From positions 62,001 through 116,412 of the forward strand of contig CAUYUJ010000244.1 of NCBI GenBank assembly GCA_963575745.1: a stretch of 54,412 bases of DNA, given 5' to 3'. Source of the stretch: Prorocentrum cordatum. Its lineage: Eukaryota. Positions within the stretch are counted from its first letter, which is position 1. Every line of letters begins with the position of its first letter. Under the pieces are notes generated by a model that did not search any database, was not told the DNA's origin, and saw nothing but the letters and a program-made list of their open reading frames with translations. The translations under genes and the position numbers were made by a program. Shown piece by piece: positions 1 through 24,605 of this stretch.

Positions 1-48
1 GGTGGACTGCGAGACACCTGCGTCGTTTGCGCATTGCTTGCAGTATCA

Positions 49-1550
49 CGGGGCTGCGTGCAGGCACTCCTCCAGCAATAGAGTCTCGAACGAAGTCCCG
101 ACGAGAACGCACAGTCAATCGTCCGACTTCTGAGCCGCGATGATGGCAATGGAGGCATCAGCGCGTTTACCCTTGAGAATCCACGCGTGTGAAGACATGA
201 GTTGCTCGTTGCGTTTACCGCCATCGCTGCACACCAACAGTCTGAGCTCTGAATCAGCCGTAAACTGAGTGCAACAGTACAAAGCCGCCCTCTGTGTCCA
301 TGGCCCAAAATTCGCTTTACAATCCGCTTCTTTGCTGAAGTCCCTCCACCTCCGTAAGACTGGATCGCCTGTTACTTCCCGTGCCCCCCAATTCAGAGCG
401 AGGAGCGTTTCCGCGATGTTCATCGCAATGTCAACTATGAGGACGCACGCATGATCGTCATGTGTCGTTCTGCCGCAAGTATGCAAGAATATTTGGCTGT
501 CCGTAACAATGTGTACTGTGCGAGCGCGCCATAGAGATAAGTTTCCATATATTGCGCCAGCCCTCCAGGCATATCCCAGTCATTATGTCAATGCTGCGTG
601 TTCAAGTGTTTTGCCTGTTTTCTCAGTTTCTTCGCGTTCCCTGCGGTGGTCGGCGTGGAGCCTGGTGTTGAAATACAAGGCCTCGTGCTCAAACCCACGT
701 GGTCGCCGAATGTCCCGGATTGCCAACACTAGCCGGCCGCTTTGCGGTTGATCGGGAGTTTCTGTACACACAGAGGGAAGGGCGTGTGCTTGTGGGCGTG
801 TGCTTCTGGCATCCAGCCTTTCCCGCCCCCATGCTGGCAACCTCCACCTCCTCCACATCCTCTCAGGAAATCCCGTGAGGTCCCTTGAGGTCGTTCTTCC
901 TCCGCCTCCTCCACCTCCTCCGACTCTCCTCCAACTCCTCCTCTTCTTCCTCCTCCTCCTCCTCCTCCTCCTCCCCCTCCTCCTCCAACTCCTTCAAGTC
1001 TCCTCCCTCCTCCTCCGCCTCCTTTCCCTCCCTTTCCTCCTCCTCCTTTTCCTCCTTTTCCTCCCCTTCCCCCTCCTCCTCCCCTCCTCCTCCTCCTCCT
1101 CCTCCTCCTCCTCCTCCATTCCTCCGTCCTCCTATGTTTTCCTCCCTGCTCATCCTCGTCACTGAAATAGGATGCTCTGCCGCCGTTTGGCTTCAGCGCA
1201 GGCGCGTACCTTTATGATGTGCGGAGAGCATAAGCACTGGAATGAACACCTTATTGCCGCCATATTGTCTTCCGTACAACTTCCAAACCCAGCAGTTCTA
1301 GTTGGTAGCGAAGCTGGGAGCGATCCCAGCTCGCGGTCCACAGAACCTGCGCATAGTGCGGTGTGGACGCACATTCGCATTGACTTCCACCTCCGCATTG
1401 TACCACCCTCCATTCCTTGAGCAGCCTGTGCTCATGGTTGTTCTGCAAACCGACTGGCAATTTGCCCCGGACGCCCACTGGTCTGGTTGCGGGGGCATCA
1501 GCAAAAGGCACAATCGCGATGAGGAGTGATTCGCCCACCAGAAACACCAT
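49..1550 (-). mobile_element. Decayed non-LTR retrotransposon 3' region (post-RT segment plus RNase H-like domain), split by a (GGA)n tract
   Basis: One minus frame from 858 to 49 (three internal stops) reads LEHAALT**LGYAWR..VHIVTDSQ..DPVLRRWRDFSKEADCKAN..LLVCSDGGKR..SHAWIL..TSFETLLLEECL, which are RNase H motifs. 1251-1550 (VLWTASWDRSQLRYQLELLGLEVVRKT) weakly resembles the segment after a LINE RT domain. Confidence 0.6.
895..1150. repeat. Imperfect (CCT)n microsatellite
   Basis: Read directly from the sequence. Confidence 0.95.
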
Positions 1551-1796
1551 GACGTTCCGCGACCCGTCGCAACCCCACAGGCACTGGCCGCAGTTTCGCG
1601 TCCCGCATGGTTGCGCGGCTCTTCCTTGGGCTAGTGCCGTGCTTCAGTATGTGTGCGATAGTGCTGGTTTTCCTTGTGAGCACATCGCACCACCCGGATG
1701 GAGCACTGAAGGCTAACGCACCAATTTTACCGACCTCGGCTTCCACCAGGGTTGACGGCATCACCATGGCATATCACGGCTGCCCCGTAGTTTGAT

Positions 1797-3210
1797 ATGG
1801 CGTTCGTCCCTGCGCAGGCCCGAGCTCCAAGGCGCCTCCGCAGCCATCATCGTGGTGAGGTCTTATCGAGGAGGATATCCATCTTGACGCTTTGGGGCTG
1901 CATCCTCGTGTTCTCCGTGGCCGTCCTGTTCTGGCCCGCCTGCATGGTGCCTGGTGGAGCAGGCCCACAGGGCGGCGGCGGCCGCGGCGGGGTCACTTCC
2001 CGCCAACCGACCTCATGGTCGCCCGAGCGCGAGTATGTGTATTATTTCCGCCAGTGGGTACAGGACTTGCTCGTTTTGATCGTGCTAGCTACCGACACGG
2101 ACAGCGCCAAGTAAAGCGCCGCCGTTCTCCTCTATTTCGGTGGGGCCGCTCGCGAACTCACGCGCTCCATGAATTTCGCGGAGATGACGGGGGGAGGCAT
2201 GGTCAACAGCCAGCAAGAGGACTCCGTGGCCTACCTCATCGCAAACCTCGTCACGCAGTTCTGTCCAATAGGCGAGGAGTCGCACATCCAGGCTACCCCC
2301 GATTTCTTCGAGTTCTCGTGGCGCCGCAACGGAACCGCTGACGCGCTGCTCTCGCGGCTTCTCACGCTGCGATTCCTAGCTACGCACAACGGTGGAGCTG
2401 CGATGTCTTGGGGGGGCTACAGCTGGCTGCTCCGAGCGGTCGGCGTCGCAGCTAGCCAACCCATGACGGTACTCCAGCCACGCGGCAACCGACGCCCAGC
2501 CACGGAGGCCGAGTCCAACAGTCTCACGGCCATGCTCAGGCGCGTGGGCCACCGAAAAACATCGCCAGCGCTCTTCGGCGCCACCATCGTTCGGTTCGTG
2601 GGGCATGACCAATGACAGCAGTAACGACGCACCTGCTACGCACCCCTGGCACACTCAGCCTCGACCCCTGGGCTGCCAGCGCCGCCGAGCTTCCCGGTGC
2701 CGGAGGTGCTAAGCCCGTCGCAGAGCGCCGCTCCGCCGCGGGCATCCTTTCCCGCCGCCGCGTGGGCGCCCGCGGACGTGGCCGACTGCGTCAGTGGAAC
2801 CTCCTCAGACACCAGTTCGGGCCCAGGCGGAGAAGTCAACTACCAATCGCCAGAGCTTCAAGGATTCATCCCTGCCCAGATAGATGAGCAGTCGTTCTGG
2901 CTTGTAAAAAACTGTTAAACGTCGGTGGCGAAGACACACGCTACGCGCAAGGCGCTTAGAGACAGCAAGAAGAGCAACAACACCTTCACCAGAAAAGGCA
3001 AAGGCAATAGTGCCCAGAAGTAGGCATATCTCTTGGAGGTTTCAGACACTCGAGTCGATATTCAAGTAGATACGCAAGTAGATACTCAAGTAGATCAGGT
3101 CTTCTGTGTTGGGACACGACAAGGCACAAGCAAGCGCTCGCCAGGCAAATCATGACGTGTAGCATCTGTGGGATCGAGTACCACTTCGCGCTGAGTGCCC
3201 GCAAGGCAAC
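1797..3210 (+). pseudogene. gag: Decayed LTR-retrotransposon gag (probably Ty1/copia-like) with CCHC zinc knuckle; no pol in window
   Basis: ORFs 1797-2114, 2169-2615 and 2697-2918 share one frame. Motifs: PTSWSPEREYVYYFRQWVQDL, GGAARELTR, FCPIGEESHIQA, RRNGTADALLSR, a K/G-rich stretch, then CSICGIEYHF/RAEC (C-x2-C-x4-H-x4-C with a 1-nt frameshift) at ~3158-3198. Confidence 0.65.
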
Positions 3211-3337
3211 GCATCCTCACCTCAGGGCAGCGGCAGCGGCGGCCAGTTCGGAGGTCACGCAAACCCTGGACTTTTAGACAGAGCCCCAGGCAGGGACCCC
3301 GGACAAGTTCACGAGGCGCGCCCCCTGACCCCCCCCC

Positions 3338-3338
3338 C

Positions 3339-3383
<45 letters not shown>

Positions 3384-3386
3384 ACA

Positions 3387-3418
<32 letters not shown>

Positions 3419-3532
3419 CACACGCACACGCACACACGCACGCACACACGCAGACGCACACGCACACGCACGCACGCACGCACACGCATACACACACGCA
3501 TACACACACACGTACACACACAAACACACCCA

Positions 3533-3599
<67 letters not shown>

Positions 3600-3635
3600 G
3601 CGCGCACGCACGCACGCACGCACGCACGCGCGCGC
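3338..3635. repeat. Compound (CA)n/(TA)n/(CACG)n microsatellite
   Basis: Read directly from the sequence. Confidence 0.95.
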
Positions 3636-4039
3636 AGGAAGTCCCCGGACGGCGCGAGCCTTTTTTTTCCCGCCGGGGCCCCGTTCCGCCCGCCCCGCTG
3701 CCGCCGAAGCCCCGTTGCGCGAGGTCGCGTCGCCCCGCCGAGGCCCTGCGCTGCGGTCTGCACAGCTCCGCCGCCCGCCCGGGGCTCCGTGTCCGTCGTT
3801 GCGGCTCGGGCTCGCCCCACCGTTTGTTCCCTACGTTCCCTGCCGGGGTGGACCTATACACGGTGTCTTGGCGATTTCGTGGGCCGTTCCCGTTTCGACT
3901 TCGTCTTGCGTGAACGGCGCATCGGAGACAAAACGAGGGAACACGAGAACAAGACGAGAACGACAAAACACCGTTTAGGTTCAGCCCTGGTTCCCTTTTC
4001 CTCACGTCGGCGGCGAGCGGGTGGGGGAAGGCGAGAAGG

Positions 4040-4210
4040 AAAAAACCTTCCCAGAAGGCGGCGGGGCTTCTCAGAAGCCCTCGGGCCCTCTGTGAGAGGT
4101 TCTCTGGGTCTTCGGGGAAGGCACAGAGAGCTTCTCGGAAGGCCCCGGGGACTGCCGAGCCTTCTGACAAGGCCCGCCCCTTCTCACTCCCGCCCCGGGA
4201 TCACCGCCGA
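4040..4210 (+). repeat. Dispersed repeat; second copy at ~5905-6080
   Basis: Both sites share CCTTCYCAGAAGGCGGCGGGRCTTCTC ... GAGCCTTCTGA..AGGCCCGCCYCTTCTCAC. Confidence 0.7.
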
Positions 4211-4575
4211 GCACGGCGGTCATCCGCGCGGCCGTCTTCCGCCCAGCCTGTCTCTGCCGAGCCTTTCTTCGCCAACGTAGTTCGTGCATCCGTTCCTGGC
4301 GCGCGAGACCTGGTGTGCAGCCACAGGCTCACTTGCGTACCCCTGTCCGCTGGCCTTGTTTGAGCCAGCTCCAGGGATCCTAATCATGCCACCCTTGGCC
4401 CGTCCTGCTTGTCCTTCGTCCACAGGGCTTCGACGGGGTGAACGTCTGGTATGAGCTGAGCGATACGTTAAAAAAGGAAGGTCGCGCCTGTCTGTCAGGC
4501 ACGCTGGGGATCCAGAACTCACGAGTGGCCAGGCCGACGACGATGCCCCAGAAATGAGCCAGCCCAATCCTAGAT

Positions 4576-4739
4576 TGCAGTCGGGCCTGTCCCTCTACAG
4601 GAAGAACGTTCAATCATAGTCAAACAATAGTAGGGGATGCTGTTTTTTTTGCTATTTTTTTAAACTTTGGGGGCATTGTTTTGCGTATTTTTTGTTTTTT
4701 CGGCCCAAATCCGCCGGTGGGGGCACACGCCCGACCTGA
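4576..4739 (+). mobile_element. MITE family A (TIR core GTCGGGCCTGTCCCTCTACAGG), copy 1
   Basis: Both TIRs present; degenerate 8-bp flanks TCCTAGAT/TGCCAGAC (5/8). Confidence 0.75.
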
Positions 4740-5110
4740 TGCCAGACACGCGAGCGCAGCGATTGACGCCGCGCGTGGGCCCCGATCGCTCGCTGTTCCG
4801 CCGCAGCCGTTTGGGTTCAGAGCCGCCTGCGAGTCGGGACCTCCGCCCTGGGCATACACAAGGGGGCTACATGCGAACCCTACCCCTACCCCCCACGAGT
4901 TCTGAAGGGGGAGGGTAGGGTTCACATCGTTCGGGAGCTCCCGAGCGAAGTGAGCCCCACCCTCCCCCTCAAAAATCGTGGGGGCTAGGGGTAGGGTTCG
5001 CATTCGGCCCCCCGAAACAGCCCACCCGTCTGGCTGCTGGCCGCCCCCGCGCGCATCTCTCCGGAGGCCCGACGTTGCGAGCAAAAATGCGGCGTCGCGG
5101 GAAATTGCGA

Positions 5111-5267
5111 CGAAGTCGGGCCTGTCCCTCTACAGGAGGAATATTCCAAAATAGTCAAAAGATAGTCAGGGGACGAAGTTTTGACTATTTTCGACCATTT
5201 GGGAACATGTTTGGGGGTATTTTTGTTTTTCGTCCAAATCCCCCTATAGGGGACATGCCCGACTAAT
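5111..5267 (+). mobile_element. MITE family A, copy 2
   Basis: TIRs GTCGGGCCTGTCCCTCTACAGG / CCTATAGGGGACATGCCCGAC; internal inverted repeat AAAATAGTCAAAA/TTTTGACTATTTT; flanks AATTGCGA/AGTTACGA (6/8). Confidence 0.8.
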
Positions 5268-5558
5268 AGTTACGACTGGACCCCCAGACCCAATCTTCTT
5301 GCGGCGGCATGTTTCGAGATGGATCGAACTATGGTGGTCCCAGACCGGGCAGCTTCCAGCGGCATTCTTCCGAGCTGAATCGTTCGGCGGTTTTGGGGCA
5401 AGAGCCCGGGCGAAAACGCCCAGTGTGCAAAAGTTGCACGGCGCGGATCTCAGGGCCAGCGCGACTCCGTGACCGACGAGATGGCGTGCATGAGCTTCCT
5501 CGGGTGCCACTCCGGGCTCTTCTCCTCCGCCCTCCCCAGCGCCGCGGCCAAGCATCGG

Positions 5559-5722
5559 AGGCCTGGAGGTTGGCAGCATCACCAATGTGGGTGGTGTGCC
5601 TTCACCGAGGGAAGTGGATCCCGATCTCGGCATGGTGGTAGCGTTCGGGGTCCTGGGTGCCCGAAGACTACCACCATCACCAGAGTCCAGGATCAGCTTC
5701 CCTCGAGGCACCCCCCTTCGTG
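5559..5722 (+). mobile_element. Truncated copy of TIR family H
   Basis: Similar to 30906-31103 and 51148-51343 (GGTGTGCCT..GATCCCGATCTCG..ATGGTGGTA). Confidence 0.6.
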
Positions 5723-6169
5723 CAGTTCCGTCTTCAGAGTGCATGAGCATGCGCTAGGGATTGATAGTCGATGAGAAGCGCCGATTTGGTGTCGATCAGC
5801 GTCGCGTTAGCGTCGAGGAGTGTCGGTCAGCGTCGATTCGCAAGAGCCAGCAAGATGGCATGGGAGGCTCCCGTGAGTTGCCACAGATTGGCGGCGACCC
5901 TGAGAGGGGGCAGGCCTTCTCAGAAGGCGGCGGGACTTCTCCAAGGCGCTAACGCCTTCTGAGAAGTTTTCTGCGTCTATGGGGAAGGCTTCGAAAGCCT
6001 CTCGGCAGGCCCGAGGCCTTCCGAGCCTTCTGAGGAGGCCCGCCTCTTCTCACCTCCCCGCCAGGCTCGCCGCCGAGCAGAAGTTGGTGTTGGTGATCGT
6101 TTTCTTATTCATTGTTTTGCCGATCGGCGTGGGCCCTCGCACCCGCCCACCCTCCCCCTCCATGGAGCA

Positions 6170-6330
6170 GCTCTTGGCGGTTTGGGGCGCCTGTTTCGAG
6201 CAGGTGGAGCCTCCCCGACGGGACGCACTGCTGCAGACAGTCGCGCTGAGCAGAGGTCCGGAGCCAGAGGCCCCCCCCCCCGCCGCCTCCTTCCGCCCAG
6301 CGTCGAAGCGCCGATTAACAAGAGAACGCT
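6170..6330 (+). repeat. Dispersed repeat; second copy at ~41033-41180
   Basis: Both share GGCGCCTGTTTCRAGCAGGTGGAGCCTCCCC..CAGTCGCGCTRAGCAGAGGTCCGGAGCCAGA. Confidence 0.8.
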
Positions 6331-6982
6331 CACGAGTCGGCGTTCGTGCCTTCCTTCCTGCTCTCTCTTTCCTTCTTCCCAGTATCTTGGTGCCAGTTTG
6401 CTGGTCGAGCTGCCCGGTCCGGGCTGCGACCGCCTAGATTGCCACCGAGAAATCTCTCCACTTGCAGCACCACGTATGTTGGGAAACGAGGATGCCGCCA
6501 CACAGCAAACAAAAATCCGAGGCCCGAAAACCATCATCACTTCACTGATTTTGGGCCCCAGGGCCCACTGAGTCCCCAGGGGCCCCAGATTGGTGAAGCG
6601 ATGTTTCTCCCCACGTAAGGACCCCGAAATGCATCACCTCACTAAACCGAGCCCAGGACGAAAGTCAGGGGCCGAATTGCTGCTGTGATGCCACATCGGC
6701 CTCGTAAAAAAAAAAAAGTTGGCGTTCGTGCCCGCCTCCACGCCTCCGGGAGCAGCCCGAGGAGCAGGCGGAGGGCCAGCGCCCCGCCGCCGCCGGCGAG
6801 GCCCAGCCCCTCGCGGAGCCCGCGGAGGCAGCCGCCGAGGGCGCGGCGGACGTGGGCGCGCCCGCGCAGGAGGCGCCCACCAAGGCCAGGGGCGTGGCCG
6901 GGTGCTTCCCCACGGCGGGCGGGGTCGGACGAAGGGGTCGATGGCGCCAAGGGCATTGGCTGCGTGGGCTGAGGGGCTCACC

Positions 6983-7150
6983 CCTCCTTTTCCTCCTCCT
7001 CCTCCTCCTCCTTTTCCTCCTCCTCCTCCTTCTCCTTCCGCCTTCTCCTCCTCATCATCATCATCCTTTGCCTCCTCCTCCTCCTCCTCCTCCTTTTCCT
7101 CCTCCTCCTCCTTCGCCTCCTCCTCCTCCTCCTCCTCCTCCTCCTCCTCC

Positions 7151-7182
<32 letters not shown>

Positions 7183-7183
7183 G

Positions 7184-7256
<73 letters not shown>

Positions 7257-7565
7257 CATCCTCATCCTTATCCTTCTCCTTCTCCTTCTCCTTCTCCTAC
7301 TCCTTCTCCTTCTCCTTCTCCTCCTCGTCCTCCTCCTCCTCCTCGTCCTCCTCCTTTTCCTCCTCCTTCGCTCTCATCCTCCTGCTGCTCCTCCTCCTCT
7401 TCCTCCTCCTCCTCCGCCTCCTCCCTCTCCCCCCCTCACTCCCCCCTGTTCCTCCTCCTTTCCTTCCCCCTCCTCCTCCCCCTCCTCCTCCTCCCCTCCT
7501 CCTCCTCCTCCTCCTCCTCCTCCTCCTCCTCCTCCTCCTCCTCCTCCTCCTCCTCCTCCTCCTCG
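6983..7565. repeat. Compound (CCT)n/(CAT)n microsatellite
   Basis: Read directly from the sequence. Confidence 0.95.
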
Positions 7566-7587
7566 TCCGTAGCCATTTGGGCTCGAG
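7566..7587 (+). other. Genomic relic of the dinoflagellate spliced leader (DinoSL)
   Basis: TCCGTAGCCATTTGGGCTCGAG matches DCCGTAGCCATTTTGGCTCAAG at 20/22; it ends 62 nt upstream of the ATG at 7650. Confidence 0.9.
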
Positions 7588-7649
7588 TGTTCTGCACTCC
7601 ACACGGTTTCGTTTTCGCGATCCCTGTCCTCCAGGATTGCTGTCTCGCC

Positions 7650-9206
7650 ATGGCTCGCAGCGGGCGTGGTGGGACGGATGGCGCCGAGGACGCCTCCAAG
7701 GTTGCTTGGGCGGCGGTGCTCGACGCGGTGCTGGCGTCGGGCGTGCGGCGTGCGATGCGGGGCCACCTGCTGCGATGTGCAGTGGAGGCGGCTGCTCGTG
7801 AGGCCGTGAGCTCCTGCCGCCAGGGCGATGCGCCCTGCGCGGCGTGCAGCATGCTAGAGGGCTTCGAAGCTACGCTCGAGCATGCTGGGGAGCATATGGG
7901 TGTGCAGGGCAAGGCGACCACGGAAGATGTGCGGCGTGCCCTCCGCTCTATCGGCCAGCACTCGTTGGCCGAAGAGTGGGAGGCCCACCGGGCGGGCCGC
8001 CGCGCGCTGGCTCATCCTGGGGCTGCCGTGCCTGAGCGCGTGCGTGCTGCGCTAGCCAAGGGTGGCACGCCCCACATGATCGACAGCCTCAAGTCCGACG
8101 ACGGCTTTGTCGGCAAGGGCTCGTTCGTTGACGCGGAGGTGGAGGCGCCTGAGAGTACGCTGGAGGTGGATAGCCTGACAGCGGACGCGGATGTGGTGCA
8201 CGGCGGCGGCGAATCGTCAGAGGGCGATGGCACGCTGCTGAGCACGAAAGAGGCGCAGGCTGTTCAGGACTGCGCTGTGGGAGCGGCGGCCGACAAGTTC
8301 GAGCCGAAGTTGGGCGGCAAGCTGGTGGTCAACGCCTTCCGTATCCAGGAGCTCGAGGACAAGTTGCGGGTCTTGCAGACTGACGTGGAGGCGCTGCTGC
8401 TGCACCGTGCAGCTGGCCTACAACCTGTCCTGGCGAGTACAGCCTAGAGCACGGACCAGGCGAAGGATAGGAACCAGGTCAGGGACGAGCTCAAGATGGT
8501 TGCTGACGTGCACTCGGCTCTCGCGGAGGAGGCCGACGGCACGTGCGTTGTCGCCAATCGTCTCAAGGTCGCGGAGCTCATGCGCTACCACACCTCGAAA
8601 ACGGGAGACGACACAATCAGCTTGAAGGAGTACGTGGCCCGCATGCAGGAGGGGCAGGACGACATACATTACATCACGGGCAAGGGCACCGCTGACATGC
8701 TCGCGTCGCCTGGCCTGGATATGTTGCGGAAGAGGGGCTTGGAGGTTCTTTACATCACCGACTCCTCGTACGAGTATGTTGTCCAGCAGCTGGATAATTT
8801 TAACGGCAAGAGGCTTGTGGCCGTTGAGCAGAATGGCCTCGAGTTGGTGAGTGAGGACGCTGGCAAGCTACCTGGGCATGGTGGTCGAGTAGCTTCGTGG
8901 GCGGACGCCGAGTTCGGCCCAGGGGACGAGCGCCACGACGCCGCTGACGACGTGGAGGCCCAGCGCGCGCAGAACCAGCATCGCGGCGCTTCCGCCGATG
9001 AGCTGATGGAGGGCATGCGGGTCGCGGTTGTCGAGGAGTTCAGCCGCAAGGGGCGGGACAAACGGGCCCGTGTCCCAGTCGGCCTCGTCGGAACCGTGGT
9101 GCATGTCGACAGTCCCGCTGAGAATGCCATCATCCAGTGGGACGATCCGACGCTTTGCGGGGAATTGGCGTTTCGGCCATGCCGCGTGCGCAATGGAGAA
9201 TGCTGA
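7650..9206 (+). pseudogene. SL-led intronless chimeric ORF (~519 codons, one internal TAG at 8445-8447) containing an Hsp90 segment
   Basis: 7650-8447 and 8496-9206 are in the same frame with no other stop. The N-terminus is helical and of unknown function, the centre is an Hsp90 fragment, and the C-terminus is a beta-rich module (EGMRVAV..VGLVGTVVHVD..AIIQWD). Confidence 0.7.
8556..8846 (+). pseudogene. HSP90: Hsp90 middle-domain fragment (~97 aa), diverged
   Basis: NRLKVAELMRYHTSKTGDDTISLKEYVARMQEGQDDIHYITG..SPGLDMLRKRGLEVLYITDSSYEYVVQQLDNFNGKRLV..GLEL matches the Hsp90 blocks LRYHTS, SLKEYV.RM, IYYITGE, EVLY..DPIDEY.VQQL.EFDGK. Confidence 0.9.
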
Positions 9207-9828: not shown

Positions 9829-9869
9829 TCCGTGGCCAGTTTGGCTCAAGTCCGTAGCGTTTCGCTCAG
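9829..9869 (+). other. Tandem DinoSL relics at the LINE 5' end
   Basis: TCCGTGGCCAGTTTGGCTCAAG (20/22) is followed immediately by the more decayed TCCGTAGCGTTTCGCTCAG. Confidence 0.8.
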
Positions 9870-15429: not shown

Positions 15430-15860
15430 CACGTTTTTTTCGTTGACGGCTCGGCTCGCGATGGGGCGTTCCCCGCCTCGCGCTCTGCAGGCTGGGGAGT
15501 TGCCGTTTATGGCAGCGAGCGCCGCTGGATCAGAGGCTGGCATGGAGCTGTCCCGCCAGCCGCGCTTCCAGACCAAGTCGCCCGCGACGGCGAAGATTTT
15601 GCAGTTTTCATGGCCGCCAGTTTTTTAGTCGGCACTTTCACGCTCTACTCCGATTGTAAAGGCACGCCATCTTGCTTCAACCAGCCCAGCTATCACTCGC
15701 ATGCATCTTTGGAAAGGGTTGCACGACAGAAATGTTTTCTCCCGCGTCGTTCTCTGCAAGGTCAAGGCCCACTCGAGCATGGAAGACGTTTGGGGGGGCA
15801 GGACCAGCCATGTGAAAACGGGCGACGACGACGCCGACCGCCTGGCCAAGCTAGGTGCGG
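15430..15860 (+). pseudogene. RNase H domain in canonical motif order
   Basis: FFVDGSARDG, QVARDGEDFA, LYSDCKG, KVKAH, GDDDADRLAKLG; preceded by CLIC..RHIEC zinc finger at ~15165-15220. Confidence 0.85.
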
Positions 15861-16869: not shown

Positions 16870-19800
16870 GGCGTCGGCCCATTCTCGAGCCCGCATTTTT
16901 GCCCCGCTCCAGAGTTTGAGGCCGCCCCAGGCACAGACCAGCAGGTCGGCGTCGCCTCTGGCCTTTTCCGCGCGTCGCATACTGGCGGCGGCGAGGGGCG
17001 CAGTCGAGCAGCGCCGCGGGCGCGGAGTCATGCCAGCGCAGAGCCCCATGTTGCCATGGACAGCCTGCCGAAGGTGCCAACATGGGGAACGCGACGACAA
17101 GTGGAAGCGGCTGGATTACAAATGCCAGCGCGGCGCCATGGTCTCCTGGAAGGGCGCCGCGTCGCAGCCAGCCGCAGCGCCGGCGGCGGCTGCGACGGCG
17201 CCTGCGGGGGCCCCCCAGCAGGCGGCGGAGTTGGCGGCGGCGCTCCAACAGGTGGCGGGCCGTCTCACGGGGCTCAACCTGCAGCCCGAGCTCACGAAGA
17301 AGCTGGCGGGCGCCGTCGGGGAGCTCGCCAAGGCGTCGGCAGCGGCGGCGGGCTCCCCGCGCATCCGTGCGGCGCGCCTCGCGGAGGCGGCGCGCGCGCT
17401 AGTGGGGGCCACCAGAGTGTGCGAGAAGGCCTTCACCGCGGCGGAGAAGGCCAGAGAGCGCCTGGCCCTGCGCGAGCAGGACCTCAAACACTAGGGCCGC
17501 GAGGTGGTCAAAGCGGAGCGCCTGGTAACAGATCGCCGCGGAGGCCCAGGCGCCGCAGCAGCCCGAGAACCTCTGGTCTGAGAGCGACCTCTCGGCCACG
17601 CAGTCGATGGCGGGCTTCGGGGGGGCCTTCAGCGCCGGCGCCAGCGAGGTGGGCGAGGTCGCGGTCGAGCAGGCCGAGCGCGCCAAGAGGGAGATGATCA
17701 GCGAGTGCAAGGGGACGACTGCAGAGTTCTGAGACAAGCTGCGAGCGCGCTGGGACGCGAAGCAGCAGGCGGCCGAGGAGGAGGCCAAGTGGGCGCCGGA
17801 AGGCCGACGCCAAGGCAGCCCCGCAGGGCTCGCCGCCCGCTGCGCCCACCGCGCCAGCGCCCCACGGCAGCGCCCCCGTGGAGGCAGCAGCGGCGGCGGC
17901 AGCGGAGGGCGCGGCCTCGGCCGCGCAGGCCAGCCGGACGGCGGCGGCGCGGGAGGAACTACTGGCGGACCCCAGGAAGCGAGAGGCCAGCGCGAAGGAG
18001 GCCGTCAACGCGGCAGTCCCGTCGAGAAGGCTCAGGGGGCCTGGGCGGCAGCGTCAGTCTGCCGAGCGCCCGTCCAGGCATGTCTTCATCGGCGACGTGA
18101 CCACCTGGGGACCTACTGCAGCGAAGTTCGTTCGCGAGTTGTGCCGCAGCGACTCGATGGACGGATTCTTGCTGCAGGAGACACATTTGAAGGCTTCGCA
18201 GATTTCAGAGGCCGAGCGCGCTCTGAAAAGGCTGGGGCCTGAAGGCCGCTGTCTCGGCAGCGCGCCAGAGCGATCGCTCGGTGGCGGGCTCGCTTGGTGG
18301 AGTGCGCGCTGCAATTCGGACCCGCCATCAAACTTCTTATTTTAGAGAGCTCGCGAGGGAGGACTGCGTCGACTAGCACCACAGTCGTAGCCTCTCGTGC
18401 TGCTGAGTTCGAGCTTCATGACTGGATGCCCCTTTCTTTGCACCTGAAGGGGGTGGCAATCACCCTCACCAGCCTGTACCTTAAGGCTCCAACGGTTTTG
18501 CTGGCGCAACATGCGCGAGCTCACATCTCTGTCAGCTTTCGTCAGGACGTTGCGTAACCCCTGGATAGTTGCAGGAGACTTCAACGCCTCGCCTGAAGCC
18601 TGCCGTAAGTCGGGCTGGGATCACCGGCTCGGCTGTCAGATTGCCACAGTGCAGGGCGGGTTCGCATGCTTCAAGAGTGATTATGAACCGTCCTAGATTG
18701 ATTGCGCGTCGCTGGGCCACGGGGCCCAATTTACGTTCGAAGGCCCCCAGACAGCGCTGGCCCCATGGGCGCCCCGGGTCGGTCAGATCCTCGCGCCCCG
18801 AGCTGAGACAGCGCCAGCTATCTCGAGGATTCAGCGCATGCCAGCGCCTCTCAAGCATCCGAGGAGGCCGCCGAAGCAGCCCGACCCTGGTAGCTGCCGC
18901 CAGGAAAAAAAACGCACCTCCTCTCGCGCTGCCGCTGCCGCGGCCACCGCCCCCCCCGTCCCAGACCGAAGAGCTGGGGCGTGCTGGAGAGGGGCGTGAG
19001 CATATCATTTTAAACCGACGATGGGAGGCCCTGGGCGCTCAAGGCTGGACAAACTTTCCCACGCTCAGCGGGTTGGATGACCCCGGGCCGGAGCCTCTGG
19101 AGGATGGGGAGATTTTGAAGAGCACGCCTTCCCTGAGCCGCCGCGGGGGCCCCGCGATGCCACGCCATCCGTGGAGGTGGCAGCGGATCTTCCCAGCTCA
19201 GGGGGGCCCTCCGACCCCCCTCCGAACCCTTCCCTCTCTTTGGAGCCCGCCGAGCCGCCCGCCGAACTGAGGGATGATCTCTGGCGCGACGCGTCGGAGG
19301 CCCCGATGCCCATTGCACTTGGGGGAGCGCCCGAGTGCGCGAAGCGCAGTGCGTCGTTCCTCGGGGCCCCTCCCCATCTTTAGCTGTAGGAGCACTGCGC
19401 GGCCAGCTGGTCCACGGGGTGGCGCAGTTCGATCGTCGCGCCTGCCGCCTAGGGGGCAGCTTGATTTTGCGGGCGCGCAGCCCCGCGCAAGTTTCTGGAG
19501 GTCGAGGGCCGAGAGAGGGGGCTAGGAAAGCCCCGATGTGCTAGTTTATCGGCAGGGCGGTGGGGTCGAGCAGCCGGCGCGCCGAGGGACTCACGCGCAC
19601 TGCGCGCCAGGGGCAGGGGGGGGCAACGGCAGGAGGAGCTACAAAACATATGCTGGAAGTTGGCTCTGGAGGAGGCGCCCTCGGCAGGTCGCAGCCCGCC
19701 CCCCGCAGGCCCTGCAGCACAAAGCCTTGTGCATTTCGCGCCCCAGGGATATATCAGCAGCGCTGCTTGCCGCGCTCAAAAGAATGGCGGCGCAGGCTGG

Positions 19801-22079: not shown

Positions 22080-24605
22080 CCGCGCGAGGTTTCTCTGATT
22101 TTGCAGTCGCCTGGGATGCTGAAGGTCCTGCTCCGCGGCGCAGTGTTTCGACGGCTTGAGGCGGACATTGGCGATGAGGTAGGCTTCCACCCAGCGGGCC
22201 TGCTTTGATGTTGTAGCTCGGCACCTCGCCTCACAGAAATACACCACTCAGGAGAAGGGGGTCCTCAGGACCGTTTGTACGGGTGCTTGGTGGACCAGGA
22301 CTTATACTATTTCCAAGGGGTACATGCATTCAGAACTCTGCCCTCTTGGATGTGGGCAACGCGACACTCTCTACCATCGTATCTGGAAATGCCCAGCTGC
22401 ACAGGATACCAGGGAGAGCGCGGTGGACCAGAAGATCTTGGACAGCATCGACGGCTTCGTCGATCATAAGCATGTCCTCTTTGCTGCTACCAGGGGGGGG
22501 GGGGGGCTGCCGCGCCCAGGAGATGATTACCCCGCCCCGTGTACGTCTGGATCCCTAGTGGCCGACTGGTTTGTGGACCCTCCTGATGACAGGACCGAAA
22601 TCCGGGGACAGATATTTGTAGATGGGTCATGCAGCCGCCACATTAGTAAATAGTTAAGCCGTGCTGCGTGGGCCATCATTTTTTTCAAGACGACCAGAGG
22701 CAGTGCAATATTCGGGGGCCTGTGCACGCGCCGCTTCCGCAGACTCCGCAGCGCGCAGAGTTTTCAGCATTCGCTGCGGCCGCCGTGTGCATAGTTGGCC
22801 TCTCAGATGTTTTTTCTGATTACCAGTATGTGATCACCCAGTACGCGGCTAGCCCTGCGGACAGAGTGAGCTTTCGCAAGGTGCATGCAGGCCGCGCGCT
22901 CCGGGCGCACAGCTGCACCAGTCGCTAGCTGACGACAGCCTCACCGACCAAGAGCGTTTTGTGCGACTCGGCAACGACTTCGCCGACAGAGGAGCGAAAG
23001 CTGCTCTCGAATTGCACGAGCGTGACGACGACGCCCTCGACATTCGATGAGCAAGTCAAGTTCGTCTCAGCCTTCTGCCGCCTTGCTACGAAGGTGCTGC
23101 CTCTGTTTCCCCCGCCCAGGGCCGACGGTGAAGTGGAGTATCGACCGATCGGCACAGCCAAGAGCGGTCTTGCAGCTCCAGATGACTGCAGCTATGTTTG
23201 GATTGCTGGTTTATGGCGCTGCAGTAAGTGCTGCCGTGCCACTCGCAAAGCAGACTTCCCGGCTAAACTTATGAGTGCGCCCAGGCCGCCGCGGCGCAGG
23301 TGTGTCGGAGTCGTTTTTGGGCTTCGACCTCGACCTCATAGCTAGTAAGCGCCAGAGCATTGTTTGTTTTTCTTGCTCAGACGGCTCCTCGCTTTTCATT
23401 TGCCTCCACTGCGCCGCTTTCGTCTCAACTGGTTCGCCGCTAACTTACATCGGCAACGGTGCGACGGAACTCGCAATAGCCGCAAGAAGTGGAAATGGAA
23501 CCGCGTCTTGAGAGGTGTCCACACACAGCACGGCAAAGACTCGGTCAGCGCACAGATTGAAGCCAGCGGAGATGATGAGACAGGTGGGCGCACTGGGCCA
23601 GCTCCGCCTCTTCAGCACAGCACGCAGCCACCATCTAACTCAGCTGCTGCTTCGAGCCAGCCAGCCGCAGCAGTGCCGATTGGCACGCTGGATCTCTGTG
23701 GCACTGATATGGGCCCCGCTCGCAAAGACAGCCAAGCCTATCAATTTTTTAATGCTCAGTTTGCGGATTTTGCTGCTGACAGTGAAGCTGCGGACTTTTT
23801 ATTTGCCTCGAGCACTGTCGAGGCCACCGCACCTCCAACCTTGCGCACAGAAGTGCAACCGGTCCTGGAGCCTGCGCACGCCGTACTGTCGCTTCCTGTG
23901 AGCAGTGTAGCCCCACCTCCCGTCCCAGAGCCTCCAGCGTTGTCTGAGCGGGCTGAGCTTCGTCGGGTCACGGAAGCTCTGGGACGTGAGGAAGATGAGG
24001 CCCCGCTCGTGCCCGAACCGTTGCTGACATGGAGTTTTGCCGTGGCCTGCCAACCGTCAACCTGGCGCCACCAGAACCGAAGGGCGAACAGCGCCCAGGC
24101 CGGTACCAGTGCTGACGTCACCGGCCGCTGCGAGCAGTGACGCCCCTCCTCATGTTCCAGAGACTCCTGCTTTGTCTGTCGGGGGAAAGAAGCTCTGGAA
24201 CAAGAAGAAGATGAGGCCCCGCTCGTGCCCGAGCCGTCTCGGGCTTCGGCCTTTCAAGCTAAAGTGCAGCGCCTTTTTAAGAGCTGCGGGAGGGGGGAGT
24301 GGGGGGCGGATTTCGGGCGACTCAGTCTAGCGCCACGGGGTCTCGGCCCCGACGGTGGCTCTAGCGCGTGCCAGATCTGCCCCTCTCCCACTCTCGCGGT
24401 GCTTGCACTGCACTTCCGCGGCCCCGCTGGCGGCCGCCCGCCACGCGGGGCCCACCCGCCCGCGGGTCTCTGGGGGGCAGAACACCCTTTCTGCCCACAC
24501 CCGCGGCATGTGGTGCCAGCAGCGTCTCGCCGCCTCTGCCGGACCCTTTTCACTTGGCCGGCCTTTTCCTGGCCAGGAAGCGGCTGGAGCCCTCTGGGGA
24601 AACAA
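22080..24605 (+). mobile_element. 3' half of a third LINE (Zn finger, RNase H, Cys-rich tail, 3' UTR) ending at (TCC)n
   Basis: CPLGCGQRDTLYHRIWKCP, IFVDGSC, QTPQRAEF, FSDY, LGNDFADRGAK, CSKC, CLHC. GC is visibly lower than upstream; (CCT)n begins at 24606. Confidence 0.75.

What the first reader, a model, noticed from the sequence alone, without database searches (positions are those of the whole stretch)
49..582. Retrotransposon RNase H with circularly permuted catalytic motif order
Seen: in one minus frame the motifs run VHIVTDSQ (D at 499-501), RRWRDFSKEADCKAN (D at 322-324), LLVCSDGG (D at 223-225), SHAWIL, TSFETLLLEECL (E at 85-87). Established: RNase HI order is D10 (DG), E48, D70 (TDS), D134 (NExAD), which is the order in both other RNase H domains here (15430-15860 and 22610-23000). 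In this copy the C-terminal half (D70 to D134, 59 aa apart) precedes the N-terminal half (D10 to E48, ~46 aa apart) via a ~33-aa linker, and I see no DG motif in the short post-RT-like stretch before TDS. Inference: a LINE lineage carries a circularly permuted RNase H, an architecture I do not know to be described. This copy is dead (stops) and sits at the window edge.
Basis: partly seen in the sequence, partly recalled or inferred. Interest (0 to 1): 0.82.

Follow-up and report, generated by a model that had tools for sequence, protein, structure and literature searches.

The report
Dead copy of back-to-front RNase H
The window edge holds a broken copy of a small dinoflagellate gene whose intact relatives encode an RNase H-type nuclease with its two halves joined in swapped order, an arrangement that standard family and fold searches miss.

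Summary
The motifs are real and far beyond chance. Read through its stops, the minus-strand frame hits a 202-aa protein at E 1.9e-35. About 20 relatives share the order D(beta4) .. NKEAD .. SDGG .. SSxExE; the named ones are Karenia brevis transcripts.

Profile comparison with 38 canonical RVT_3/RNase HI proteins splits in two. The first half matches the canonical C-half (Prob 97%, E 5e-11). The second half matches the canonical N-half (E 0.012; 0 of 150 shuffles reach its score). Swapping the halves in a script gives one 133-column alignment (Prob 98.3%, E 2e-14).

AlphaFold gives one compact domain (pTM 0.80) with beta4-aB-aD-beta5-aE-linker-beta1-beta2-beta3-aA. Each half superposes on RNase H structures separately. 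So the circular permutation is supported.

- It is not a LINE ORF2 piece. The ORF starts at a Met (nt 572) and relatives stop about 45-55 aa after the Glu.
- The true Glu position (nt 122-124) is Gly here.

This copy is a pseudogene. The scan had not noted this family before.

The parts
534..572 (-). Start of the pseudogene: Met (572-570) plus 12 codons, MPGGLAQYMETYL, in the first of three frames. An in-frame stop lies 5 codons upstream (588-590).
   Evidence: tblastn of P0011 aa 1-13, 11 of 13 identical. The stop-to-stop ORF 435..587 begins HNDWDMPGG.
133..543 (-). Main body in the second frame. It covers the beta4-like strand through the beta3-like strand of the permuted domain (P0011 aa 12-150, 56% identity).
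   Evidence: the family HMM hits ORF 118-579 at E 5e-31.
499..501 (-). Asp of VHIVTDSQ, equivalent to RNase HI D70 (beta4). It comes first in this protein.
   Evidence: Conserved as Asp in 11 of 11 family rows that cover it. It aligns to 'gDSE' of the canonical profile.
322..336 (-). SKEAD (family consensus NKEAD), equivalent to RNase HI N130..D134 on the last helix. The Asp is at 322-324, and the family's Asn is Ser in this copy.
   Evidence: Asn 19 of 19 and Asp 19 of 19 in the family. Pfam RVT_3 positions 105-123 of 123 match here in relatives.
217..234 (-). VCSDGG (family GWSDGG), equivalent to the beta1 'DG' motif with RNase HI D10. The Asp is at 223-225.
   Evidence: Asp 21 of 21 in the family. 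It aligns to canonical 'DGGaRGNPG'.
5..130 (-). C-terminal part in the third frame: EVGRLTVRSRRDFVRDSIAGGVPARSPVILQAMRKRRRCLAV. This is helix aA plus a basic tail (RKRRR at nt 17-31). The ORF would end about 5 codons beyond the window edge.
   Evidence: tblastn of P0011 aa 164-205, 60% identity. P0002, P0010 and P0011 end ...RKRRRCLAIRQFIM or ...RKRRRCLAIRHFIM.
122..124 (-). Position of the family's conserved Glu (RNase HI E48 equivalent). It is Gly in this copy.
   Evidence: Glu in 17 of 19 family rows. P0011 'EVE' is 'EVG' in the window.
130..160 (-). Second frame break with loss of about 10-13 codons (P0011 aa 151-163, the end of beta3 and the loop before aA).
   Evidence: The aligned pieces end at nt 133 and resume at nt 130 in another frame.
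85..87 (-). It is an out-of-frame reading and not part of the protein.

Best explanation
Window 5-572 (minus strand) is a pseudogene. It is a decayed copy of a small stand-alone dinoflagellate gene family of about 200-340 aa.

The family's single domain is a naturally circularly permuted type-1 RNase H of the RVT_3/RNase HI kind. The chain begins just before strand beta4 and runs beta4 (Asp) - aB - aD - beta5 - aE (N-x-E-A-D). A conserved, partly structured linker of about 20-25 residues then leads into beta1 (D-G-G) - beta2 - beta3 - aA (Glu). A short basic tail (..RKRRR..) follows.

All four carboxylates of the RNase H DEDD site are kept in the family. Intact members therefore most likely fold into one RNase H-like domain and cut nucleic acid, most simply the RNA strand of RNA:DNA hybrids, by two-metal catalysis.

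Shown: the conserved order, the homology of both halves to the canonical domain, the ORF limits, the predicted compact fold, and the decay of this copy. Inferred: enzymatic activity and substrate, nuclear targeting by the basic tail, and origin by duplication of an RNase H domain followed by loss of the outer halves.
For: 1. Family and order.
- phmmer found 8 relatives, the best at 1.9e-35.
- A profile search found 9 proteins at E<=1e-3.
- A metagenome scan gave 4 more permuted members, L082-L085.
- All show first half then second half in one frame.
- In L082-L085 each half occurs once across six frames.

2. ORF limits.
- The window and P0011 share the start MPGGLAQYM, and in the window an in-frame stop precedes it.
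- Ten sequences that are complete at the 3' end (P0002, P0005, P0007, P0009, P0010, P0011, P0015-P0017 and the L082 ORF) stop about 45-55 aa after the Glu.

3. Homology to RNase H.
- Pfam RVT_3 matches the first half in 11 of the 16 database relatives scanned and in 3 of 3 metagenome ORFs. It always uses the C-terminal part of the profile, ending at position 122-123 of 123, and scores 13.9-21.2 bits against a cut-off of 21.6.
- hhalign of the family (A6) against 38 canonical proteins (A5): the first half matches canonical columns 90-168 at Prob 97.1%, E 5e-11. The second half matches columns 28-89 at E 0.012, so the two hits abut at columns 89/90.
- With the halves swapped in a script, one alignment covers 133 columns at Prob 98.3%, E 2e-14, score 93.1. 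The native order gives 80.0 over 78 columns.
- The second half alone scores 24.1. 150 column shuffles gave mean 11.1, sd 2.4, max 22.9, and 0 of 150 reached the observed score. The reversed alignment scored 10.7.
- Against 81 proteobacterial RNase HI the two best local hits were the family's NKEAD segment to RnhA 130-143 and its WSDGG segment to RnhA 4-27. Both are weak, at E 0.02 and 0.26.
- Language-model neighbours are RVT_3/RNase_H clusters at 0.90-0.92.

4. Active site. D70-like 11/11, N130-like 19/19, D134-like 19/19, D10-like 21/21, E48-like 17/19.

5. Structure.
- The AF2 model of P0011 has pLDDT 80.4 and pTM 0.80, with the core at about 90.
- Its elements run E20-25, H28-34, H42-62, E74-76, H83-95, E99-102, E114-124, E129-139, E145-155, H162-181.
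- The P0005 model has the same order, with its core at 75-95.

6. Pseudogene status. The gene lies in three frames, is missing codons, and has Gly at the Glu position.
Against: - No Pfam model reaches its curated cut-off on any member. The window copy itself gets no Pfam or PDB sequence hit at E<=10.
- The second half alone (P0017, P0018) gets no Pfam hit. Its hhalign probability is low (3.6-15.6%), although its score beats all shuffles.
- I had no model coordinates. I could not check that the four carboxylates meet, or that the two halves sit as they do in RNase H.
- The alignments are shallow (17-21 rows, Neff about 2.6).
- Only Karenia brevis is named among the sources. Most relatives come from unnamed short contigs whose 5' ends I could not inspect.
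- The P0003/P0012 cluster has Arg at the Glu position.
Confidence: 0.8

Rival explanations
1. Two tandem canonical RNase H domains (or a tandem gene array), seen only from the middle. On this view the 'permuted' unit is the C-half of copy 1 plus the N-half of copy 2, cut by the window edge and by gene prediction.
For: Tandem RVT_3 pairs do exist in this subfamily. The 626-aa ORF of L086 is SAP + 2 x RVT_3 (E 3.4e-57, 2 stretches), and P0019 carries the end of a first domain before a complete second one. The window copy runs off the window edge.
Against: - Nothing RNase H-like lies upstream of the Met in the window. tblastn of 17 family proteins hits only nt 5-572. The family HMM and the canonical HMM find nothing else.
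- Relatives start with Met just before beta4 and end at conserved stops after a conserved tail.
- Each half occurs once in six frames of four whole contigs.
- The N-terminal extension of the long forms shows no similarity to an RNase H N-half (E 0.21) or to the family's own second half (E 0.35).
Confidence: 0.05
2. A degenerate RNase H domain of a LINE/non-LTR retrotransposon ORF2, rearranged in this lineage.
For: The window contains LINE-like remains elsewhere: Exo_endo_phos at about nt 18130-18597 on the plus strand, E 6e-6. Pfam's nearest family is named 'Reverse transcriptase-like' (RVT_3).
Against: - No RT or endonuclease match was found in six frames of nt 1-8000.
- Upstream of the gene lie an unassigned stretch and a (GGA)n microsatellite at 898-1133.
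- The ORF has its own Met start.
- Relatives are short stand-alone ORFs, five of them in a Karenia brevis transcriptome.
- No protein of 593-2000 aa matched the family profile, which is weak evidence.
- The nearest canonical relatives are cellular or giant-virus RNase HI-type proteins, not ORF2 domains.
Confidence: 0.05
3. The same permuted gene, but the two halves do not pair within one chain. The protein would form a domain-swapped dimer, with the C-half of one chain paired to the N-half of another, or it would be a non-catalytic nucleic-acid binder.
For: Permuted and half-domain proteins often swap. No activity or oligomer data exist. The P0003/P0012 cluster lacks the Glu.
Against: AF2 places both halves of a single chain in one confident domain (pTM 0.80). 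The linker of about 20-25 residues is conserved (the D-F pair is nearly invariant) and partly structured (E99-102). All four carboxylates are otherwise conserved.
Confidence: 0.1

Closest known systems
Type-1 RNase H of the RVT_3/RNase HI kind (Pfam PF13456/PF00075). Solved examples that surfaced here: LC11-RNase H1 (3U3G/4H8K), Halobacterium RNase H1 (4E19), Rv2228c N-domain (3HST), HIV-1 RT RNase H domain (1HRH).
   Same: The four acidic positions and the N-x-x-A-D helix motif are the same. The set of secondary-structure elements is the same. Each half aligns by profile and by structure.
   Different: The chain order is rotated, with new termini between helix aA and strand beta4 and the old termini joined by a conserved linker. 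No curated profile passes its cut-off. There is an extra basic tail, and in some members an N-terminal extension of 120-160 aa with no detectable family.
Eukaryote-type SAP + tandem RVT_3 proteins (L086 ORF, P0019) and giant-virus deoxynucleoside-kinase-like/RNase H fusions (L088-L090)
   Same: They are the closest canonical sequences to the first half (28-35% identity, R-E-x-N-K-x-A-D-x-L-A-N-x-A-x-D). L086 shows that duplicated RNase H domains occur in this subfamily.
   Different: All have the canonical order D-E-D-D. None is permuted.
[quoted passage not shown]
   Same: It is a computational report that a permutation exists somewhere in the CATH RNase H-like superfamily.
   Different: The text I could read names no proteins, organism or catalytic residues, so I cannot tell whether it is this family. 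The authors state that their literature search found only the RNase T2/BECR case for ribonucleases.
Circularly permuted RuvC/A22-type resolvase of a mirusvirus-like virus
   Same: It is another member of the RNase H-like superfamily with its two halves swapped, and it too is missed by standard searches.
   Different: It belongs to a different family (a RuvC resolvase, viral) and is unrelated in sequence. I did not test it here.

Membership tests
Type-1 RNase H (Pfam RVT_3 PF13456 / RNase_H PF00075) | Match to the curated profile above its gathering score | tested here: not met
   The window copy has 0 families at E<=10. Relatives score RVT_3 13.9-21.2 bits against a cut-off of 21.6, on the C-terminal part of the profile only.
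Type-1 RNase H (Pfam RVT_3 PF13456 / RNase_H PF00075) | Four conserved carboxylates (D10, E48, D70, D134 in E. coli numbering, recalled) | tested here: met
   In the family: 21/21, 17/19, 11/11 and 19/19, with equivalences taken from hhalign. The window copy keeps 3 of 4, because the Glu position is Gly.
Type-1 RNase H (Pfam RVT_3 PF13456 / RNase_H PF00075) | Canonical chain order beta1-beta2-beta3-aA-beta4-aB-aD-beta5-aE | tested here: not met
   The order is beta4..aE then beta1..aA in every member, and the hhalign hits tile the canonical profile in swapped order.
Type-1 RNase H (Pfam RVT_3 PF13456 / RNase_H PF00075) | RNase H fold (five-stranded mixed sheet with flanking helices) as one domain | tested here: inconclusive
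   AF2 gives a confident single domain with the right elements, and each half superposes on RNase H.
Type-1 RNase H (Pfam RVT_3 PF13456 / RNase_H PF00075) | Metal-dependent cleavage of the RNA strand of RNA:DNA hybrids | not testable with these tools
   This needs an enzyme assay.
RNase H domain of a non-LTR (LINE) retrotransposon ORF2 | Lies in one ORF downstream of a reverse transcriptase (and usually an endonuclease) | tested here: not met
   No RT or endonuclease match in six frames of nt 1-8000. The ORF has its own Met after an in-frame stop. No longer fused relatives were found (weak).
Tandem (dual) RNase H architecture | A second complete or C-terminal half domain after the Glu helix, or an N-half before the first Asp strand | tested here: not met
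   Relatives stop about 45-55 aa after the Glu. Each half occurs once per contig in six frames. The N-extension is not RNase H-like.

The most novel reading that the evidence does not exclude
Dinoflagellates carry a lineage-specific, expressed family of naturally circularly permuted RNase HI enzymes. It would be the first natural permutant of this textbook fold to be tied to named sequences and an intact DEDD site. It would have arisen from a tandem RNase H protein (SAP + 2 x RVT_3 type) by loss of the outer halves, and it would act in the nucleus on RNA:DNA hybrids. The window holds one of its dead copies.
Probability: 0.5. Interest if true: 0.72.

Novelty: new variant of a known kind. Interest (0 to 1): 0.62.

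Why it matters
RNase HI is one of the best-studied folds in enzymology and in protein-folding work. A natural version whose chain starts at beta4 and ends with helix aA would be a ready-made test of how chain order shapes the folding and catalysis of this domain.

For dinoflagellates it adds a lineage-specific candidate enzyme for RNA:DNA hybrid metabolism. The locus in this window is itself only a decayed copy.

Tried and rejected
- Own genome: none is held. Copy number and intact copies in this organism could not be examined.
- Pfam and PDB-sequence searches with the window copy, and a PDB-sequence search with the family profile, gave nothing useful.
- No second copy exists in the window by tblastn, blastn or HMM.
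- Fused or longer forms: none among the 8000 candidates scored at 593-2000 aa. The tool itself calls this weak evidence.
- I considered whether the N-terminal extension of the long forms (motifs like 'NfNL.tDGL' and 'IGGDLFtLLD') is a relic of a lost N-half. hhalign gave E 0.21 against the canonical profile and E 0.35 against the family's own second half, so there is no support.
- Building a canonical RVT_3 set from prokaryote genomes failed: 0 of 5 and 0 of 151 genomes matched. I used the search for homologous proteins with the second domain of L086 instead.
- The proteobacterial RNase HI profile (81 sequences) was too distant for significance.
- Whole-model fold searches: RNase H is not among the top rows; only half-matches appear.
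- Dinoflagellate spliced-leader relic next to the gene: none. The only matches in the window are at 7567-7587 and 9830-9850, and there is none in the 87 loci fetched by then.
- Sequencing runs: no RNA holder is listed. The only holder has 0.11 of the sampled words. I did not lay reads.
- Viral origin: 3 of 3 IMG/VR hits are canonical giant-virus RNase H fusions, not permuted.
- The midpoint-rooted tree shows the family as one long-branched clade joining near the L086/P0019-P0024 group. It is too weak to name a donor.
Their other content is unknown.
- Literature searches found no paper on a permuted RNase HI apart from the CIRPIN mention. PMC7824862, PMC2628886 and PMC12290083 (passages read) proved irrelevant.
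Full report
**What is in the sequence**

On the minus strand of window 1-762, one frame reads ...VHIVTDSQ...RRWRDFSKEADCKAN...LLVCSDGG...SHAWIL...TSFETLLLEECL..., interrupted by stops. The window copy matches no Pfam family and no PDB sequence at E<=10. No second copy lies in the window. No whole genome is held for the window.

**It has relatives, and they share the odd order**

phmmer of the read-through frame against 1.84 billion cluster representatives gave 8 proteins at E<=1e-3. The best, P0002 (202 aa), scored 1.9e-35 at 55% identity over query residues 74-211, one alignment running across both 'halves'.

More members came from three sources:
- Cluster look-ups and a profile search added members, giving P0002-P0018 in all.
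- Five carry a source name, all from a Karenia brevis transcriptome.
- A metagenome scan gave four more members on whole short contigs, L082-L085.

Every member has the same layout:
- a strand with v-[AT]-D-[SN]-[EQ];
- NWGPR;
- W-R-R-R-x-x-N-K-E-A-D-x-L-A-N-x-A-M-D;
- a conserved linker of about 20-25 residues (D-F nearly invariant);
- q-G-W-S-D-G-G-s-R .. S-S-x-G-W-I-L-K;
- i-i-A-A-g-A-k-f;
- S-S-l-E-v-E;
- an amphipathic stretch, then a basic tail (..RKRRR..) and a stop.

**The true reading of the window copy**

tblastn of P0011 (210 aa, the P0002 cluster) puts the gene in three frames:
- aa 1-13 at nt 572-534 (MPGGLAQYMETYL, 11 of 13 identical);
- aa 12-150 at nt 543-133 (56% identity);
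- aa 164-205 at nt 130-5 (60% identity).

About 10-13 codons are lost at the second break. Several things follow:
- Nearly the whole ORF is present, from its Met (572-570, five codons after an in-frame stop) to about five codons short of the stop, which lies beyond base 1.
- The family's conserved Glu corresponds to nt 124-122 and is Gly here.

**Is it RNase H, and is it permuted?**

Four lines of evidence agree.

*1. Pfam.*
- RVT_3 (the RNase HI-like 'reverse transcriptase-like' family) is the only recurrent match.
- It appears in 11 of the 16 database relatives scanned and in 3 of 3 metagenome ORFs.
- It always falls on the first half of the protein and always uses the last part of the profile, ending at position 122-123 of 123.
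- It always scores below the cut-off (13.9-21.2 bits against 21.6).
- Natural fragments holding only the second half (P0017, P0018) match nothing.

*2. Profile-profile comparison.*
- I assembled 38 canonical RVT_3/RNase_H proteins (A5). They came from a search with the second RNase H domain of metagenome locus L086, plus L086 and L087 themselves.
- hhalign of the 21-row family alignment A6 against A5 gave two hits. Family P0005 66-154 matched canonical P0020 63-141 (Prob 97.1%, E 5e-11). Family 164-231 matched canonical 1-62 (E 0.012, Prob 3.6%).
- The two hits abut at canonical profile columns 89/90, so together they tile the canonical domain in swapped order.
- When the two halves were swapped in a script, one alignment covered 133 columns (canonical 32-165) at Prob 98.3%, E 2e-14 and score 93.1. 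The native order gave 80.0 over 78 columns.
- The second half alone scored 24.1. 150 column shuffles gave mean 11.1, sd 2.4 and max 22.9, with 0 of 150 reaching 24.1. The reversed alignment gave 10.7.
- A more distant profile of 81 proteobacterial RNase HI gave the same two pairings, but weakly: the NKEAD segment to RnhA 130-143 at E 0.02, and the WSDGG segment to RnhA 4-27 at E 0.26.

*3. Catalytic positions.* These were taken from the hhalign equivalences. The D70-like Asp is kept in 11 of 11 rows that cover it, the N130-like Asn in 19 of 19, the D134-like Asp in 19 of 19, the D10-like Asp in 21 of 21, and the E48-like Glu in 17 of 19. The exceptions are P0003 and P0012, one cluster, with Arg.

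*4. Structure.*
- AlphaFold2 on the family alignment gave, for P0011, mean pLDDT 80.4 and pTM 0.80, with the core (residues 20-181) near 90.
- The elements run E20-25, H28-34, H42-62, E74-76, H83-95, E99-102, E114-124, E129-139, E145-155, H162-181. That is beta4-aB-aD-beta5-aE, a partly structured linker, then beta1-beta2-beta3-aA.
- P0005 gave the same order with a disordered N-terminal 64 residues.
- Language-model neighbours are RVT_3/RNase_H clusters at 0.90-0.92.
- Missing: a permutation-aware superposition of the whole domain and a check that the four carboxylates meet.

**The tandem-domain alternative**

The evidence goes against it.
- Short forms (P0002, P0007, P0011) begin with Met 10-25 residues before the first strand. 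In the window that Met follows an in-frame stop.
- The sequences complete at the 3' end stop about 45-55 residues after the Glu, behind a conserved tail.
- In L082-L085 each half occurs exactly once in six frames, apart from a short local repeat in L083.
- The 120-160 aa N-terminal extension of the long forms is not detectably RNase H-like (E 0.21 and 0.35).

Tandem pairs do exist among the nearest canonical relatives. The L086 ORF is SAP + 2 x RVT_3, and P0019 shows the same. Origin by domain duplication and loss of the outer halves is therefore plausible, but it is only an inference.

**The LINE context**

I found no support for it.
- There is no RT or endonuclease match in six frames of nt 1-8000.
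- Upstream lie an unassigned stretch and a (GGA)n microsatellite.
- The only LINE-like signal is an Exo_endo_phos match at about 18.1-18.6 kb on the other strand.
- No relative of 593-2000 aa was found, which is weak evidence.
- The nearest canonical sequences are cellular-type or giant-virus RNase HI proteins.
- The two 'other RNase H domains' of the window show canonical motif order by eye but match no Pfam family at E<=1.

**Host**

Two relics of the dinoflagellate spliced leader (2 mismatches each; 0 expected in shuffles) lie at 7567-7587 and 9830-9850. This fits a dinoflagellate nuclear genome. None is next to this gene.

**Mechanism proposed**

Intact members fold as a single RNase H-like domain. 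The old N- and C-termini are bridged by the conserved linker, and the new termini lie between aA and beta4. The conserved D/E/D/D set then performs two-metal hydrolysis, most simply of the RNA strand in RNA:DNA hybrids. The basic tail may serve nuclear import or nucleic-acid binding.

The order, the homology, the ORF limits and the predicted fold are shown. Activity, substrate, localisation and origin are inferred. A domain-swapped dimer cannot be excluded.

**Novelty**

Seven full-text searches found no paper describing a natural permuted RNase HI. [quoted passage not shown] They say their literature search found only the RNase T2/BECR case.

It does hold a note on a permuted RuvC in a virus (e1-5643447, untested here).

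I file the finding as a new variant of a known kind. The family is interesting. The locus in the window is a pseudogene at the edge.

Noticed in passing
window 7567-7587 and 9830-9850 (+): Two relics of the dinoflagellate spliced leader (21-mer, 2 mismatches each; 0 matches in 100 shuffles). They suggest retroposed, once trans-spliced transcripts and a dinoflagellate nuclear origin for the window.
   Followed up: partly
window ~18130-18597 (+): Exo_endo_phos (AP-endonuclease type) match, E 6e-6 and 26.5 bits, the only Pfam hit in the plus frames of 13-25 kb. It is probably the endonuclease of a decayed LINE.
   Followed up: partly
window 898-1133: A (TCC)n/(GGA)n microsatellite of about 78 units lies directly upstream (on the gene's strand) of the pseudogene. 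It gives long Gly/Glu/Arg-rich pseudo-ORFs.
   Followed up: no
whole window: None of the 18 long stop-to-stop ORFs scanned (334-813 aa) has a Pfam match at E<=1e-3. In this DNA of about 60% G+C, long open frames are not evidence of genes.
   Followed up: partly
L086 3366-5243 (+): A eukaryote-like metagenome contig encodes a 626-aa protein with a SAP domain and two tandem RVT_3 RNase H domains. The first lacks the beta1 Asp. This is a possible model for the precursor of the permuted family.
   Followed up: partly
L088, L089, L090: Giant-virus MAG contigs encode fusions of a deoxynucleoside-kinase-like N-terminal part (named by eye only) with a canonical RNase H. Their R-E-x-N-K-E-A-D-K-L-A-N motif is close to that of the permuted family.
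   Followed up: no
L083 ~17-739 (+): This family member carries a short tandem repeat of the DPVIWRERKHNKEADYLA segment with a stop between the copies, so it is a second damaged or rearranged copy.
   Followed up: no
P0003, P0004, P0012, L082 N-termini: Long forms share a conserved N-terminal extension of 120-160 aa (..TGWRHQHSGxRHSWED..LPxWR..) with no Pfam match and low AF2 confidence. Its function is unknown.
   Followed up: partly
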